Counted from the first letter of the stretch, positions 18,119-42,930 are shown. The stretch is DNA of 64,000 bases from an uncultured Methanosarcinaceae archaeon (GCA_963727895.1 CAVSHT010000004.1:320001-384000); one strand, 5' to 3'. Notes: generated by a model from the sequence alone, not told the origin. A program made the numbers and translations.

Positions 18119-18145
18119 TAACTAATATGAAAATTTAAAAAATAT

Positions 18146-18887
18146 GGCATTGTTACTTAACTATATTTAATTATTTATTTCTGTATTTCATCAATAGAAT
18201 AACCGAGTACTTTAGCATTTCAAGACTCTTCGTATAACACTTTGTCTCTTTCTTCTCAATCTTGCCAGAAAGTGCCTCAATATGCTGTTATATCCTTCAA
18301 CGGTATACGTTTCTGCTTTTGATTGAGTATGGATCTTTTTTGGAATAAACTCTGCATATGCTCTCCAGTGATAGGTCATCACTTCTCCAATCTCTTTTTT
18401 CTTCACTTTTTCCCAGAGTAGTTTTCCAGTTTCCGTTCCTCTGCTATCAAAAGAGCAGTTGATGAACTTTTTCCCAACTCTATCAATAGCAATCCAGATC
18501 CAGCAATATTTTTTTTGTTACCGATGTAAGTGTGCATCTCATCCATTTCAACAATAGATATCTCACTTTCACTTTTTAGGTCCTCTAACTCCTGACCAAA
18601 TTTCTTTATCCATCTTTGGACAGAAACATGACTAACCCCTAAAACTCTTCCTATTGAACGAAAGCCCAATCCTTCAAGGTAAAGTTGTAAAGCCTGTTTT
18701 TTAACAGAGGCGGAAAAAGCAGTTGATTTTAGCTCTACTGTATAGTTATATCCACAATCATGGCATTTGTAGCGTTGACGCCCGCCAACTATACCGTTCT
18801 TTTTGTGACTGGAACTATTGCATTTTGGGCAGTTCATGAAGAAATATATGTTATAAGCACATATATCTATTTTTGTTTACCAATGCC
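18146..18887 (-). mobile_element. IS1-family element, copy 3, with 8-bp target duplication AAAAATAT; InsB C-terminus frameshifted
   Basis: GGCATTG...CAATGCC; AAAAATAT on both flanks; 2-bp insertion near 18248 gives RRKRQSV. Confidence 0.92.
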
Positions 18888-40310: not shown

Positions 40311-41167
40311 GGTTCCGTTGCAAAAAATATCTGCTAAGGATATAATTAAAATAAAAATGAAATCAAAGATAGTGATATGCTATCTAATTCCTTTAAATGG
40401 AAGCACTTTGTTGGTGAAATTATTTTATTGAATGTTAGATGGTACTTAAAATACCCACTTAGTTATGGAAATTTAAAGGAAATGATGGCAGAAAGAGGGA
40501 TAATAGTCAACCATACAACTATTATGAGATGGGTACATCAATATTCACCTGAAATCGAAAAGAAGGTCAGAAGGCATTTAAGACCAACAAACGACTCTTG
40601 GAGAGTTGATGAAACTTATATCAGAGTTAAAGGTGAATGGAAATATTTTTACCGAGCAGTTGACTCAAATGGAGATACAATTGATTTCATGTTAAGTGCA
40701 AAACGAGACCAAAAAGCAGCAAAACGTTTCTTTAAGAAAGCTTTGAACTCTAATCATAATCAAATTCCAAGAGTAATCACAGTTGACAAAAATCCAGCTT
40801 ATCCACCTGCTATAGATAAACTGAAAAATGATAAAATACTACCTATAAACGTAGGCATTCGACAAATCAAATATTTGAATAACATTATAGAACAGGATCA
40901 TAGATCCATTAAACGAATAGTTAATCCAATGTTAGGATTTCAGTCTTTTCATACAGCCATTAAAACTTTAAAAGGAATTGAAGCTATGAATATGATTAAA
41001 AAAGGACAAATCAAGAACTTAAATTACTCTGGCTTTAATGAAGCTAAATATATTAATCAATTATTTGGAATAGTTCTATAATATTGACATATCTTTTTGA
41101 ATATTTTAACTTTTATTCATTATTCATAGATTTACAGGCTTATTCTAAGATTTTTTGCAACGGAACC
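40311..41167 (+). mobile_element. IS6-family element, copy D (transposase 40377-41081)
   Basis: Same IRs, full-length transposase (SYGNL variant). Confidence 0.96.
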
Positions 41168-42199
41168 ACAAAAGCTACCAGCCCGAAAATTGCGTTTGAG
41201 GTATTTACTCCGGAACTTGAAATTATGAATTCTTTCGAACTCTCAAGTGTTGCAGGATTACTGGCATAAGGATCAGAATAGAGAGAAGTTTTTAGCTTTC
41301 CAAGCTCAGGTTCGGAGGTTTTTTTCTTAAGGGGAATTCTGTCAAAATCCACTTTTGCGGCAAGACCAGTGAGAAGTGCTGCAATTGCTGAAGAAAGTCC
41401 TGGGAGCCATGCCACAAGTGAACCCGCTGCACTGCCTGTAAGGATTCCTCTCAAAATTCGTTTTCGAGAAAGTTTGAGTGCAGAAACAGATTCCTCTGGA
41501 ATTTTAGAGCTTGTTAGAAGGCTTATAATTAATTGGGATGCTCCGAAAAGCCCACTCAAGAGGGGAAGGAGTATAGAAGGTTCTCCAAAACTTACAATTG
41601 GAACCATTAGAAATTCTCTGGAAAATGCAAAAAGCCCAAGTAAGCCTGTGATCAAGAATAAAACTAACGCAAAAAATTTGTACTTATATTTTGCAAGTAG
41701 ATTTCTCTTTTTAGAATCGTCATCTTTTTCATTTTTTTCACTTGCAAGCATCAGAAATACTATTAAAATAAGAATCCATGCCATATGCGCTTCAATATAA
41801 GGATAAACAGCTTTAAAAAAGAGAGAAAAAGGTACCACGAAAATCAGAGCGGCAACTACCGAGCCCGCGCTTCCAAGTGCTGAAAGGCGAACTGCTTCGG
41901 CTCCTGCTCCATCAAGCAGAAGCCTGTGTCCTGGCAGGACTGTTAGTGCGGTATCTCCATCCGGCGCTCCTAAAAATATTGATGGGATTATGTCATGAAA
42001 GATCTGAGATATAGCGTTTGAAAAAATAATCACAGCTATGTAAAAAGGTGCAAGTCCTTTCTCAGCTAGGAATGGGGCAAAGGCTACTAGTGCAAGTGCA
42101 AAATTATTTTATGTATTCCAGGAAGAAGACCTGAGATTATGCCAAGAAGGTAACCCCCTAAAATTGACAAAAAAGTAAGAATAAAGAGACACCTTCCAC
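41168..42199 (-). pseudogene. Archaeal TctA-like (DUF112) membrane protein, frameshifted and 3'-truncated by IS6
   Basis: GIISGLLPGIH (frameshift ~42110), IPSIFLGAPD, VLPGHRLLL, LLSGLFG, SGVNTSNAIF then IS6 end. Confidence 0.82.
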
Positions 42200-42629
42200 T
42201 TAGTAACCACCCAATACTTTGTTTAAATCTTTAAAAACTATTACAGGTAGTTACAATTATTTCTATAAACAGATATTTTAAGCATACTTGTGAAAAGAAA
42301 TTGCTTATCATTCAAAATGAAGAATTAAAATAATAGAATAGAATAAGAAAGTGATAAAAAGAAATAGGAACGTTATAAAAAAGAAATAAGAAAGTAGTTA
42401 GATTAATTTAACTATACTAAAAAGATTTAGTTCTTTAATTTTAAAAGTTATAATATAAATTTTTTGTGGTGGAGTTCCGTAATCTTTTATGATATTTTGG
42501 AAGCATATATAAAAATATAATCTAACTGGTTGATAAGTGCCTCAAAATTTTTTGTTCCTTTGATCACATCAAAGAAAATAAAAAATCAATTCCATTTATG
42601 TTTTATATGTGACCGATATCTTATATTAT

Positions 42630-42930
42630 GTAGTTCTAAATGCTAATTTTGAATGGGGTTCATGAGTAGCATTTAGTGAATATGTAGAGCAAGGATACCG
42701 AGGTTCGCCATTCCTCAACCTTGTCCTCCATAAGTCAGAAGCTCTCCCTTAATCAGAAGCCACCGAGGTTTTTTGCCATTCCTCAAGCTTTAGTTTCAGG
42801 AGATACTTCATATGGGAAACGGAAAGAGGTTCGCCATTCCTCACTTCCGATTCCCTTAATTTCAGAAGCAAAAAGAAGTGAGAGGTAAATCCCTCTCAAT
42901 ACTGTTTTTCCTCTCACTTCAATTGCCTTC
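42630..42930 (+). ncRNA. Candidate structured small RNA with three repeated GAGG-UU(C/U)GCCAUU-CCUC stem-loops
   Basis: Five predicted hairpins; GC-richer island in an AT-rich intergenic region; TATA-like TTTATAT at ~42602; strand inferred. Confidence 0.55.

What the first reader, a model, noticed from the sequence alone, without database searches (positions are those of the whole stretch)
42630..42930. Candidate multivalent RNA: three hairpins displaying the same anti-start-codon loop
Seen: in an ORF-free gap between divergent genes, GAGGTTCGCCATTCCTC (~42700 and ~42826) and GAGGTTTTTTGCCATTCCTC (~42765) each cap a different lower stem (CAAGG/CCTTG, AAGC/GCTT, GGGAA-CGGAA/TTCCG-TTCCC). Loop and closing pairs are conserved while the stems vary. 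A linker motif (TAA-N-TCAGAAGC) recurs three times. A 5' hairpin (CTAAATGCTA/TAGCATTTAG) and an 11-bp 3' hairpin (GAAGTGAGAGG/CCTCTCACTTC) bracket the array, with TTTATAT ~28 nt upstream. Inference: this is the architecture of a protein-sponging RNA (CsrB-like logic) or a multi-seed sRNA. The loops are complementary to GAGGA-AUG-GC(G/A)-AA, i.e. translation starts of Met-Ala proteins. Alternative reading: on the minus strand the same motifs open three micro-ORFs (MANLFPFPI, MAKNLGGF, MANLGILALHIH), although GAGG sits only 1 nt from the ATG.
Basis: partly seen in the sequence, partly recalled or inferred. Interest (0 to 1): 0.8.

Follow-up and report, generated by a model that had tools for sequence, protein, structure and literature searches.

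The report
Methanosarcina sRNA124 ortholog, three-loop RNA
The three look-alike hairpins are real and belong to an abundant small RNA that is already catalogued in Methanosarcina mazei as sRNA124, though its structure and job appear never to have been described.

Summary
Window 42636-42920 (+) contains a 5' hairpin, three hairpins each capped GAGG-loop-CCUC with the invariant GCCAUUCCUC, and an 11-bp 3' hairpin.

It is not new as a gene. The orthologous locus in M. mazei Go1 is annotated as sRNA124 (NC_003901.1:3356386-3356686, minus strand, 301 nt) in the supplements of PMC11456600. There it is very abundant (35,000-65,000 rpkm), does not respond to nitrogen, and has very low ribosome occupancy (TE 0.04-0.09).

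What I add:
- It is single-copy and present in 44 of 59 genomes of the genus and in 4 of 4 sampled genomes of one sister genus. It was not found in the other genera searched.
- Covariation supports all stems, while the GCCAU loop core stays fixed.
- G.U pairs, the promoter and the published annotation all place the RNA on the + strand.
- The minus-strand micro-ORFs and the 91-codon ORF_08 are not conserved.
- Metatranscriptome contigs from two studies cover only the RNA, at high depth.

No paper text that I could search mentions sRNA124, so its function is open. My best guess is a trans-acting RNA with three redundant seeds that pair with translation-start regions. I found no conserved target. 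A protein-decoy role is not excluded.

The parts
42530..42623 (+). Conserved upstream block with an archaeal TATA-like box (TTTATAT, 42602-42608). It lies about 22-30 nt before the projected 5' end.
   Evidence: Alignment of 20-21 orthologous loci; still conserved in the sister genus. Its role as a promoter is inferred from position, not measured.
42624..42927 (+). Projected transcript: the ortholog of M. mazei sRNA124 (301 nt there).
   Evidence: The ends are projected through the alignments from the annotated NC_003901.1:3356386-3356686(-) in the supplements of PMC11456600. Metatranscriptome contigs cover 42643-42884.
42636..42676 (+). 5' hairpin: a 10-bp outer stem (CTAAATGCTA / TAGCATTTAG) with an inner GAAU-GGG-GUUC hairpin. 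It is nearly invariant. It contains the 9-11-codon sORF that M. mazei lists as sORF_252.
   Evidence: (15 pairs; 13 of them never vary and 2 change on one side in 1 of 20 sequences).
42687..42728 (+). Hairpin A: lower stem GAG-CAAGG / CCTTG-..-CTC carrying cap A (42700-42716, loop UUCGCCAUU).
   Evidence: Covariation (MAFFT alignment, 88% paired against 42-54% when slid; 5 of 8 lower-stem pairs change on both sides).
42738..42809 (+). Hairpin B: a long composite stem carrying cap B (42765-42784, loop UUUUUUGCCAUU).
   Evidence: helices 3-5: 10 of 16 pairs change on both sides; many G.U pairs.
42814..42855 (+). Hairpin C: lower stems GGGAA and CGGAA / TTCCG and TTCCC carrying cap C (42826-42842, loop UUCGCCAUU).
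   Evidence: all 8 lower-stem pairs change on both sides.
42856..42874 (+). Single-stranded linker with the conserved A-T-(A/T)-TCAGAAGCAA motif (TCAGAAGC at 42862-42869).
42875..42920 (+). 3' hairpin: 11-bp stem GAAGTGAGAGG / CCTCTCACTTC. Its conserved 24-nt loop holds CCCUCUC (42891-42897) and a T5 run (42905-42909).
   Evidence: 4 of 11 pairs change on both sides, AU to GC. The M. mazei annotation ends 7 nt after the distal arm.

Best explanation
This is the ortholog of Methanosarcina mazei sRNA124. It is an independent, single-copy gene for an RNA of about 300 nt, transcribed from its own TATA promoter on the + strand, divergently from a TctA-family membrane-protein gene.

The RNA folds into five modules: an invariant 5' hairpin, three stem-loops and a 3' hairpin. 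In each stem-loop a variable, covarying lower stem holds up the same 4-bp cap (GAGG/CCUC). The 5' half of the cap loop is a U-rich spacer of variable length. The 3' half is the invariant GCCAU(U).

Shown:
- Its identity as the sRNA124 ortholog, its strand and its structure.
- Its distribution across genomes.
- In M. mazei: high abundance regardless of nitrogen supply, and very low ribosome occupancy.

Inferred: it acts in trans. Each loop nucleates pairing through GCCAUU with AAUGGC-type sequences. Pairing can extend into CCUC by opening the weak cap stem, giving up to 10 bp with GAGGAAUGGC. Alternatively CCUC pairs with a Shine-Dalgarno GAGG and GCCAU with AUGGC, with the mRNA spacer looped out. 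Either way it would mask translation-start regions, as M. mazei sRNA41 and loop 2 of sRNA154 are reported to do. Three seeds would give redundancy or let it bind several sites in polycistronic mRNAs.

I am about 95% sure of the identity and about 40% sure of the base-pairing mechanism.
For: Identity:
- The window region matches single-copy loci in 20 of 24 genus genomes at 74-86% identity.
- The flanking proteins of the G012 locus are in the M. mazei Go1 gene table next to MM_2798.
- The feature annotated there, sRNA124 at 3356386-3356686(-), prints the same sequence as G012, with the three caps.

Expression:
- RNA rpkm is 35475, 52901, 65410 and 45269. TE is 0.086 and 0.037. RNA log2FC between nitrogen conditions is -0.15 (p = 0.65).
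- In the metatranscriptomes, contig depth is 91-356 (X1) and 53-396 (X4) over 42640-42879, against 0-2 in the flanks. These are two studies.

Strand:
- The conserved TATA and upstream block lie only on the + side.
- Cap variants form G.U pairs that would be C.A on the other strand (G157, G177, G182, G165).
- There are many G.U pairs in the stems.
- The published strand agrees.

Structure:
- Hairpin C plus the 3' hairpin: 96.5% of cells paired against 41-61% when slid. 13 of 23 pairs change on both sides. 81 such cells against 21.6 +/- 3.6 in shuffles (0 of 500).
- Hairpins A and B: 91.7% paired against 37-64% when slid; 15 of 32 pairs; 73 cells against 26 +/- 5.7.
- The cap stem itself is kept by compensation (AAGG/CCUU in G167, G171 and G052).

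Seed-like pattern:
- The 5' half of the loop varies (UUCG, UUUUUUG, UUUG, UCG, CCG, UACG, UUAUG, UGUG), while GCCAU is kept in all three loops across two genera.
- UUCG and UUUG fit the YUNR U-turn motif of antisense recognition loops. That motif is recalled from general knowledge, not tested here.
- The caps pair better with start regions than their reversed sequences do: 500 against 142 sites at or below -16 kcal/mol among 14129 candidate starts.

Non-coding.
Against: No conserved target was found.
- The exact 10-mer complement occurs 12 times in G000. Three are the RNA itself, 7 lie in two repeat families and 2 are singles, against roughly 3 expected by my own base-composition estimate.
- The best single site is a 15-nt match to cap B before a 30-codon ORF. 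It has an ortholog in only 1 of 58 other genomes, and the match is lost there.
- The IS21-like transposase site is found in only 31 of 59 genomes.
- No M. mazei gene row was found with GAGGA directly before ATGGC. I am not certain that search can cross table cells.

The enrichment is what any CCUC- plus CAU-containing sequence would give, and it ignores accessibility.

CCUC is paired inside the cap, so only 5-6 nt are freely exposed.

Five genus genomes that are 89-98% complete lack the RNA, so it is dispensable in some lineages.

Three identical, rigidly displayed motifs on an abundant, constitutively expressed RNA would equally suit a protein-binding scaffold.

Run X5 showed only low-depth contigs on the upstream flank and none on the RNA. 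Run X2 had a single contig at depth 3.
Confidence: 0.45

Rival explanations
1. It is a multivalent decoy or scaffold. The three identical capped hairpins are binding sites for an RNA-binding protein, or for the small ribosomal subunit through the SD-like GAGGU. The abundant RNA would titrate or assemble that partner, following CsrB/RsmZ or 6S-like logic.
For: - Three copies of one rigidly conserved stem-loop sit on variable stalks. The stem is kept by compensation rather than by sequence, and the loop length is free on one side only.
- Abundance is very high and constitutive.
- No conserved mRNA target was found.
Against: - No candidate protein exists. CsrA was not found in G000, which is 84% complete, and the control genomes did ring.
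- RRM_1 was found in 0 of 59 genus genomes.
- The loops have no GGA.
- Ribosome-footprint signal relative to RNA is lower than for the non-coding control sRNA162: 3442/48828 against 668/5063 baseMean. This argues against ribosome binding.
Confidence: 0.25
2. It is a dual-function RNA or a small mRNA. The conserved element would be the 9-11-codon sORF inside the 5' hairpin (M. mazei sORF_252, MLILNGVHE[SI]) or another sORF, with the hairpins as UTR structure.
For: - The Ribo-seq authors' curation column reads 'yes' for sRNA124, and DeepRibo calls sORF_252.
- The peptide MLILNGVHE(SI) is kept in 35 of 43 orthologs.
Against: - TE is 0.04-0.09.
- The sORF's start and stop codons both lie inside a 10-bp stem.
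- In three of four sister-genus copies, a 1-nt deletion shifts the frame while the nucleotides stay nearly identical.
- G158 and G154 also change the peptide.
- ORF_08 has a start codon in 26 of 43 orthologs and closes after 8-60 codons in 42 of 43.
- About 250 nt of covarying structure lies outside any conserved ORF.
Confidence: 0.1
3. It is a cis-acting leader or 3' element of a neighbouring gene (ncsA downstream, or the divergent TctA gene) rather than a free RNA.
For: It is co-directional with ncsA, 390 nt downstream. The left neighbour is kept in 23-26 of 37 loci.
Against: - The right neighbour differs between genomes. It is a convergent pirin gene in 22 of 37 loci, and NcsA is within reach in only 8 of 37.
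- A covariation-supported 3' hairpin with a T run ends the RNA.
- The M. mazei annotation is a discrete 301-nt sRNA.
- Contig cover stops at 42884.
Confidence: 0.03

Closest known systems
M. mazei Go1 sRNA124. It comes from the sRNA catalogue of Jager et al. 2009, as used in PMC11456600. I saw supplementary files 3, 5, 6 and 9, plus passages of the main text.
   Same: Orthologous sequence, the same three caps, the same strand relative to the TctA-family neighbour, and the same length class.
   Different: It is from another species, 74% identical to the G012/M. mazei type. The pirin gene that follows the RNA in most genomes is missing here. Two extra TCAGAAGC copies are specific to this species.
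M. mazei sRNA41 and sRNA154 (anti-RBS, loop-presented seeds). Sources: PMC5867862 passages and PMC3177094 passages. The primary papers were not held.
   Same: Intergenic Methanosarcina sRNAs with their own promoters and conserved single-stranded loops. These are reported to mask ribosome-binding sites, for sRNA41 at several sites within one polycistronic mRNA.
   Different: - sRNA154 is 130-132 nt, has two loops, is induced by nitrogen limitation and has an NrpR operator. Its printed sequence lacks the cap motif.
- sRNA124 is about 300 nt, has three identical caps and is not nitrogen-regulated.
- I could not see the sRNA41 sequence.
Bacterial sRNAs with repeated C/U-rich loop seeds: Staphylococcus RNAIII and the Rsa RNAs, and the CcsR/'cuckoo' RNAs of alphaproteobacteria. 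Recalled from general knowledge.
   Same: Several hairpins display the same pyrimidine-rich anti-SD-like motif.
   Different: There is no homology. Here the motif also contains CAU (the complement of the start codon) and is half buried in a 4-bp stem. Targets are unknown.
CsrB/RsmZ protein-sponging RNAs.
   Same: Repeated identical stem-loops on an abundant RNA.
   Different: The loops have no GGA, no CsrA was found in the genome, and this is an archaeon.

Membership tests
sRNA124 of Methanosarcina (catalogued sRNA) | Sequence homology to the annotated sRNA124 over its full length | tested here: met
   The window matches G012 at 74% over 377 nt. The G012 sequence reads the same as the printed sRNA124 sequence.
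sRNA124 of Methanosarcina (catalogued sRNA) | Same genomic context and strand: divergent from the MM_2798-type TctA-family gene | tested here: met
   The left neighbour is kept in 23-26 of 37 loci, including the window.
sRNA124 of Methanosarcina (catalogued sRNA) | A discrete transcript of about 300 nt exists | tested here: inconclusive
   This is shown for M. mazei by published rpkm values. For the window's own type there are only metatranscriptome contigs at 42643-42884, which cannot show ends or strand.
Anti-RBS trans-acting sRNAs (sRNA41 / sRNA154 type) | Conserved single-stranded loop complementary to the RBS or start of identified targets | tested here: inconclusive
   The loop is conserved and complementary to generic SD plus AUG features. 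No conserved specific target was found.
Anti-RBS trans-acting sRNAs (sRNA41 / sRNA154 type) | Sequence relationship to sRNA154 or sRNA41 | tested here: not met
   The printed sRNA154 sequence has no cap motif and is unrelated by eye.
CsrB/RsmZ-type sponge | GGA motifs in the hairpin loops, and a CsrA/RsmA partner encoded in the genome | tested here: not met
   The loops are UUCGCCAUU and UUUUUUGCCAUU. PF02599 was not found in G000, which is 84% complete, and the control genomes did ring.
Rfam families (any) | Match to a curated covariance model | tested here: not met
   The best hit had E = 0.64 and was far below the gathering score.
Dispersed repeat / MITE | Many copies per genome | tested here: not met
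   There is one locus per genome. The cap motif occurs in tandem only at this locus.

The most novel reading that the evidence does not exclude
sRNA124 is the first archaeal multivalent decoy RNA. Its three identical GCCAU-displaying caps would not pair with mRNAs. Instead they would titrate a so-far unidentified RNA-binding protein, or a translation-initiation component that normally reads 'SD plus AUG', setting a global level of translation initiation in Methanosarcina.
Probability: 0.15. Interest if true: 0.8.

Novelty: already known. Interest (0 to 1): 0.35.

Why it matters
sRNA124 is among the more abundant small RNAs of a model methanogen, yet none of the paper texts I could search says anything about it.

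This analysis gives it:
- a structure supported by covariation,
- a defined conserved element: GCCAU in three loops,
- a phylogenetic range of two genera, with losses in some lineages,
- evidence that the ORFs listed on it are not conserved.

That makes a focused experiment possible: loop mutants, a tagged pull-down and a deletion. The result would show whether archaea use multi-seed anti-start-site RNAs or protein-sponging RNAs. As a discovery of a new element, however, it is ordinary, because the transcript was already catalogued.

Tried and rejected
1. **Rfam.** Searched at E up to 10; nothing credible.

2. **RNAalifold on the whole MAFFT alignment.** It paired cap A with cap C because the caps are identical. 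On single modules it predicted only the caps, because MAFFT misregisters the bulged stems. I used covariance-model alignments instead.

3. **Shuffled-flank control.** Enclosing base pairs were 9.6 against 5.9, 25.5 against 15.1 and 12.5 against 7.9. This is only weakly discriminating, because shuffling keeps the complementary base composition.

4. **Paper searches.** Searching for the motif strings found only unrelated primer hits. 'sRNA124' gave 0 papers. The 'sRNA 124' variants gave only an Acinetobacter paper.

5. **Papers not held.** Buddeweg 2018, Prasse 2017, Prasse and Schmitz 2018 and Jager 2009.

6. **Earlier findings of this scan.** Nothing on this locus.

7. **Candidate targets.**
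   - The C9:386395 site is rejected.
   - The three-copy GAGGAATGGC locus turned out to be a dispersed multi-copy repeat.
   - The IS21-like site is not universal.

8. **Intramolecular pairing** of the caps with GAAUGG in the 5' hairpin: rejected, because three of four sister-genus copies lose the U.

9. **Other RNA classes, rejected by inspection.** For K-turn, H/ACA, C/D-box, T-loop and anticodon-loop mimicry, the required GA pairs, boxes, U33 or loop sizes are absent. The motif definitions are recalled, not tested.

10. **RRM-protein partner idea.** 0 of 59 genus genomes.

11. **Parts of the stretch without contig cover** (42885 onward; run X5 on the RNA) are not evidence of absence.

12. 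**Adapter-like loose ends.** Three junctions in X1 and X4 all place read 1 on the minus strand, which would mean a + strand RNA in a dUTP library. I count this only as a weak hint, because the adapter identity is recalled and the library type is unknown.

Full report
**1. The observation**

- 5' hairpin: 42636-42645 pairs with 42667-42676.
- Cap A: 42700-42716, GAGG-UUCGCCAUU-CCUC.
- Cap B: 42765-42784, GAGG-UUUUUUGCCAUU-CCUC.
- Cap C: 42826-42842, identical to cap A.
- 3' hairpin: 11 bp, 42875-42885 pairs with 42910-42920. A T5 run (42905-42909) lies in its loop.
- A TATA-like TTTATAT at 42602-42608.

Each cap sits on a different lower stem.

GCCATTCCTC occurs three times in the window against 0.18 expected; 0 of 100 shuffles reached three. 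The region folds better than shuffles on both strands (z = -4.1 and -4.7), so folding energy does not pick the strand.

TCAGAAGC occurs three times in the RNA. Only the last copy is conserved in relatives.

**2. What it is**

A BLAST search of related genomes found one matching locus in 20 of 24 genomes of the same genus. Identity was 74-86% over about 365 nt. Outside the genus the only hit was a 29-nt chance-level match.

One of these genomes is G012. Its locus is flanked by a TctA-family membrane-protein gene and a pirin gene. I looked for the N-termini of those two proteins in the supplementary gene tables of the M. mazei Go1 Ribo-seq paper (PMC11456600). Both are there, next to MM_2798.

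The feature annotated between them is 'sRNA124', NC_003901.1:3356386-3356686, minus strand, 301 nt. Its printed sequence is the same as the G012 sequence and carries the three caps. The strand agrees with the window's + strand, because the TctA gene is divergent in both.

According to the paper's Discussion (passage seen), these sRNAs come from Table S5 of Jager et al. 2009. I could not read that paper.

**3. Published numbers for sRNA124**

| Measure | Values |
|---|---|
| RNA rpkm | 35475, 52901 (the condition in which sRNA154 is high, i.e. nitrogen limitation); 65410, 45269 (the other condition) |
| Footprint rpkm | 4185, 2888, 2030, 1956 |
| Translation efficiency | 0.086 and 0.037 |
| RNA log2 fold change | -0.15 (p = 0.65) |

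So the RNA is very abundant, does not respond to nitrogen, and is poorly occupied by ribosomes. Its footprint-to-RNA ratio is lower than that of sRNA162, which the authors use as their non-coding control.

The authors' curation column nevertheless reads 'yes'. It lists a 12-codon sORF in the 5' hairpin (sORF_252) and a 91-codon ORF_08. DeepRibo also lists an antisense sORF_251.

No main text in the searchable library contains 'sRNA124'. Variant spellings gave only an unrelated Acinetobacter paper. Rfam has no matching family.

**4. Expression of the window's own type**

Eleven metatranscriptome runs hold 5-12% of the sampled words of the stretch. I laid four of them at 80% likeness or more.
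- X1 and X4, from two studies, have contigs at depth 91-356 and 53-396 over 42640-42879. Depth in the flanks is 0-2.
- X2 has one 190-nt contig (42666-42855) at depth 3.
- X5 has only depth-2 contigs on the upstream flank (42401-42615) and none on the RNA.

Contigs cannot give ends or strand. Three adapter-like loose ends all put read 1 on the minus strand. I count that as only a weak hint for a + strand RNA.

**5. Distribution**

The pattern of two caps 20-120 nt apart occurs in 44 of 59 genomes of the genus, G000 included. It occurs in 0 of 118 genomes of 15 other genera of the family. The reversed control pattern gave no hits anywhere.

A covariance model of hairpins A and B, run on an order-wide sample of 151 genomes, gave these results:
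- all 12 sampled genus genomes plus G000 were found;
- 4 of 4 genomes of one further genus (g16) were found;
- 0 of 32 genomes of six other genera of the family;
- 0 of 102 genomes of five other families.

Five genus genomes that lack the pattern and are 89-98% complete also give no model hit. The RNA has therefore been lost, or is unassembled, in some lineages.

The g16 copies keep the promoter block, the 5' hairpin and cap A. Their caps B and C differ (UGUGCCAUUCCUU; UUUGCCAUAUCCUU or UACGCCAUUACCUU). The element common to all loops in both genera is GCCAU.

**6. Structure**

I compiled 43 intact orthologs. There is also one damaged copy in G008, which has an insertion of about 75 nt and has lost half of the 5' hairpin.

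*Caps.* There are 129 caps in total. Among them:
- two are AAGG/CCUU, a compensated change;
- four have a G.U pair;
- one has a mismatch.

The 5' half of the loop varies in length and sequence, while GCCAUUCCUC is almost constant.

*Hairpin A on a structure-blind MAFFT alignment.* 88% of cells are paired, against 42-54% when the partner column is slid. There are 19 double-change cells against 9.8 +/- 2.1 in shuffles.

*Covariance-model alignments.* These lean towards the model.

| Region | Cells paired | Slid controls | Pairs changed on both sides | Double-change cells vs shuffles |
|---|---|---|---|---|
| Hairpin C + 3' hairpin | 96.5% | 41-61% | 13 of 23 | 81 vs 21.6 +/- 3.6 |
| Hairpins A + B | 91.7% | 37-64% | 15 of 32 | 73 vs 26 +/- 5.7 |

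All eight lower-stem pairs of hairpin C covary. Four pairs of the 3' hairpin covary as well, including its distal arm beyond the T5 run. That fits the M. mazei 3' end, which lies 7 nt after that arm.

The frequent G.U pairs fit the + strand.

**7. Coding potential**

- *ORF_08.* The frame has a start codon in 26 of 43 orthologs and closes after 8-60 codons in 42 of 43.
- *Minus-strand micro-ORFs.* They share only MANL or MAK, and then diverge in sequence and length.
- *5'-hairpin sORF.* It reads MLILNGVHE(SI) in 35 of 43 orthologs. In three of the four g16 copies, however, a 1-nt deletion shifts the frame while the nucleotides stay almost identical. The constraint therefore looks to be on the RNA, not on a peptide.

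**8. Neighbours**

The TctA-family gene on the left is found in 23-26 of 37 loci that have flanks. A pirin gene follows the RNA in 22 of 37. NcsA is within 1.5 kb in 8 of 37.

In the window the pirin gene is missing. The TctA gene is short (profile positions 44-304 of 423) and lies next to an IS6 transposase gene.

The RNA is thus an independent gene, not a leader of ncsA.

**9. How it may work**

The loops are complementary to AAUGGC and, with the 3' arm of the cap, to GAGGAAUGGC. I looked for targets in several ways.

- *Exact complements in G000.* The 10-mer occurs 12 times. Three are the RNA itself. Four are copies of an IS21-like transposase gene, at ATGGAGGAATGGC. Three belong to a dispersed repeat. 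Two are single sites.
- *The transposase site.* It is also in the M. mazei table, but is found in only 31 of 59 genus genomes.
- *A 15-nt match to cap B.* It lies before a 30-codon ORF. That locus has an ortholog in only one other genome, and the match is lost there.
- *Duplex-energy scan.* Over 14129 candidate starts, the caps pair better than their reversed sequences: 500 against 142 sites at or below -16 kcal/mol. Any sequence containing CCUC and CAU would do the same.

Base pairing with translation-start regions therefore remains the best-fitting model. The reasons are:
- analogy with sRNA41 and with loop 2 of sRNA154 (passages in PMC5867862);
- the seed-like conservation pattern;
- a YUNR-like 5' half of the loop (a recalled motif).

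It is not demonstrated.

The decoy model is equally compatible with the anatomy but has no candidate partner. CsrA was not found and RRM proteins are absent from the genus.

**10. Verdict**

The transcript is already catalogued, so the gene itself is not new.

The following appear to be undescribed in what I could read:
- the covariation-supported three-cap structure;
- the invariant GCCAU loop core;
- the two-genus range with losses in some lineages;
- the lack of conservation of the ORFs listed on the RNA.

The primary sRNA papers and the 2009 supplement were not available to me and may bear on this.

Noticed in passing
window 40377-42033: An IS6-family transposase gene (40377-41081, +) lies directly beside the TctA-family gene (41140-42033, -). 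That gene covers only profile positions 44-304 of 423, so it looks truncated, possibly by the insertion.
   Followed up: partly
G000 C3:44961, C4:29142 (outside the window), C5:347882, C6:22271: There are four copies of an IS21-like transposase gene. Its first codons (ATGCTGAAAATGGAGGAATGGC...) contain the exact 10-nt complement of the sRNA cap. The same gene start is in the M. mazei table. The motif, with at most 1 mismatch, occurs in 31 of 59 genus genomes, with up to 15 copies. It is a possible but non-universal target class.
   Followed up: partly
L066 (G000 C4:181600-182100), L067, L068: This is a dispersed repeat family with up to 13 matches per genome, often at contig ends. It also carries GAGGAATGGC at the start of a degenerate ORF of about 28 codons (..KVEERF).
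   Followed up: partly
L021 (G008 C91, about 18130-18480): The G008 copy of the RNA is damaged. An insertion of about 75 nt with inverted ends (CTAGTGTCG...CGACACTAG) sits between hairpins A and B. The 5' half of the 5' hairpin has been replaced and cap A has changed. It amounts to a natural mutant.
   Followed up: no
L065 (G000 C9:386250-386650): A promoter-preceded 30-codon ORF (MAKMITEVDFEQKLSNL...) is conserved as an ORF in only one other genome of the genus (G160).
   Followed up: partly
L126-L129 (genus g16): The sister-genus homologs keep the promoter block, the 5' hairpin and cap A almost unchanged, but have altered caps B and C. They are useful for defining the minimal motif (GCCAU).
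   Followed up: partly
window 42530-42600: About 70-100 nt upstream of the TATA box is conserved across two genera. In most genomes, though not in the window, it includes a TAAGC-C-GCTTA palindrome. This may be a regulator site shared with the divergent TctA gene.
   Followed up: no
window 42880-42897 versus 42910-42920: The 5' arm of the 3' hairpin can pair in two ways. One partner is the invariant proximal CCCUCUC, which would give a short hairpin followed by the T run. The other is the distal arm. Only the distal pairing covaries. This could be an alternative terminator form.
   Followed up: no
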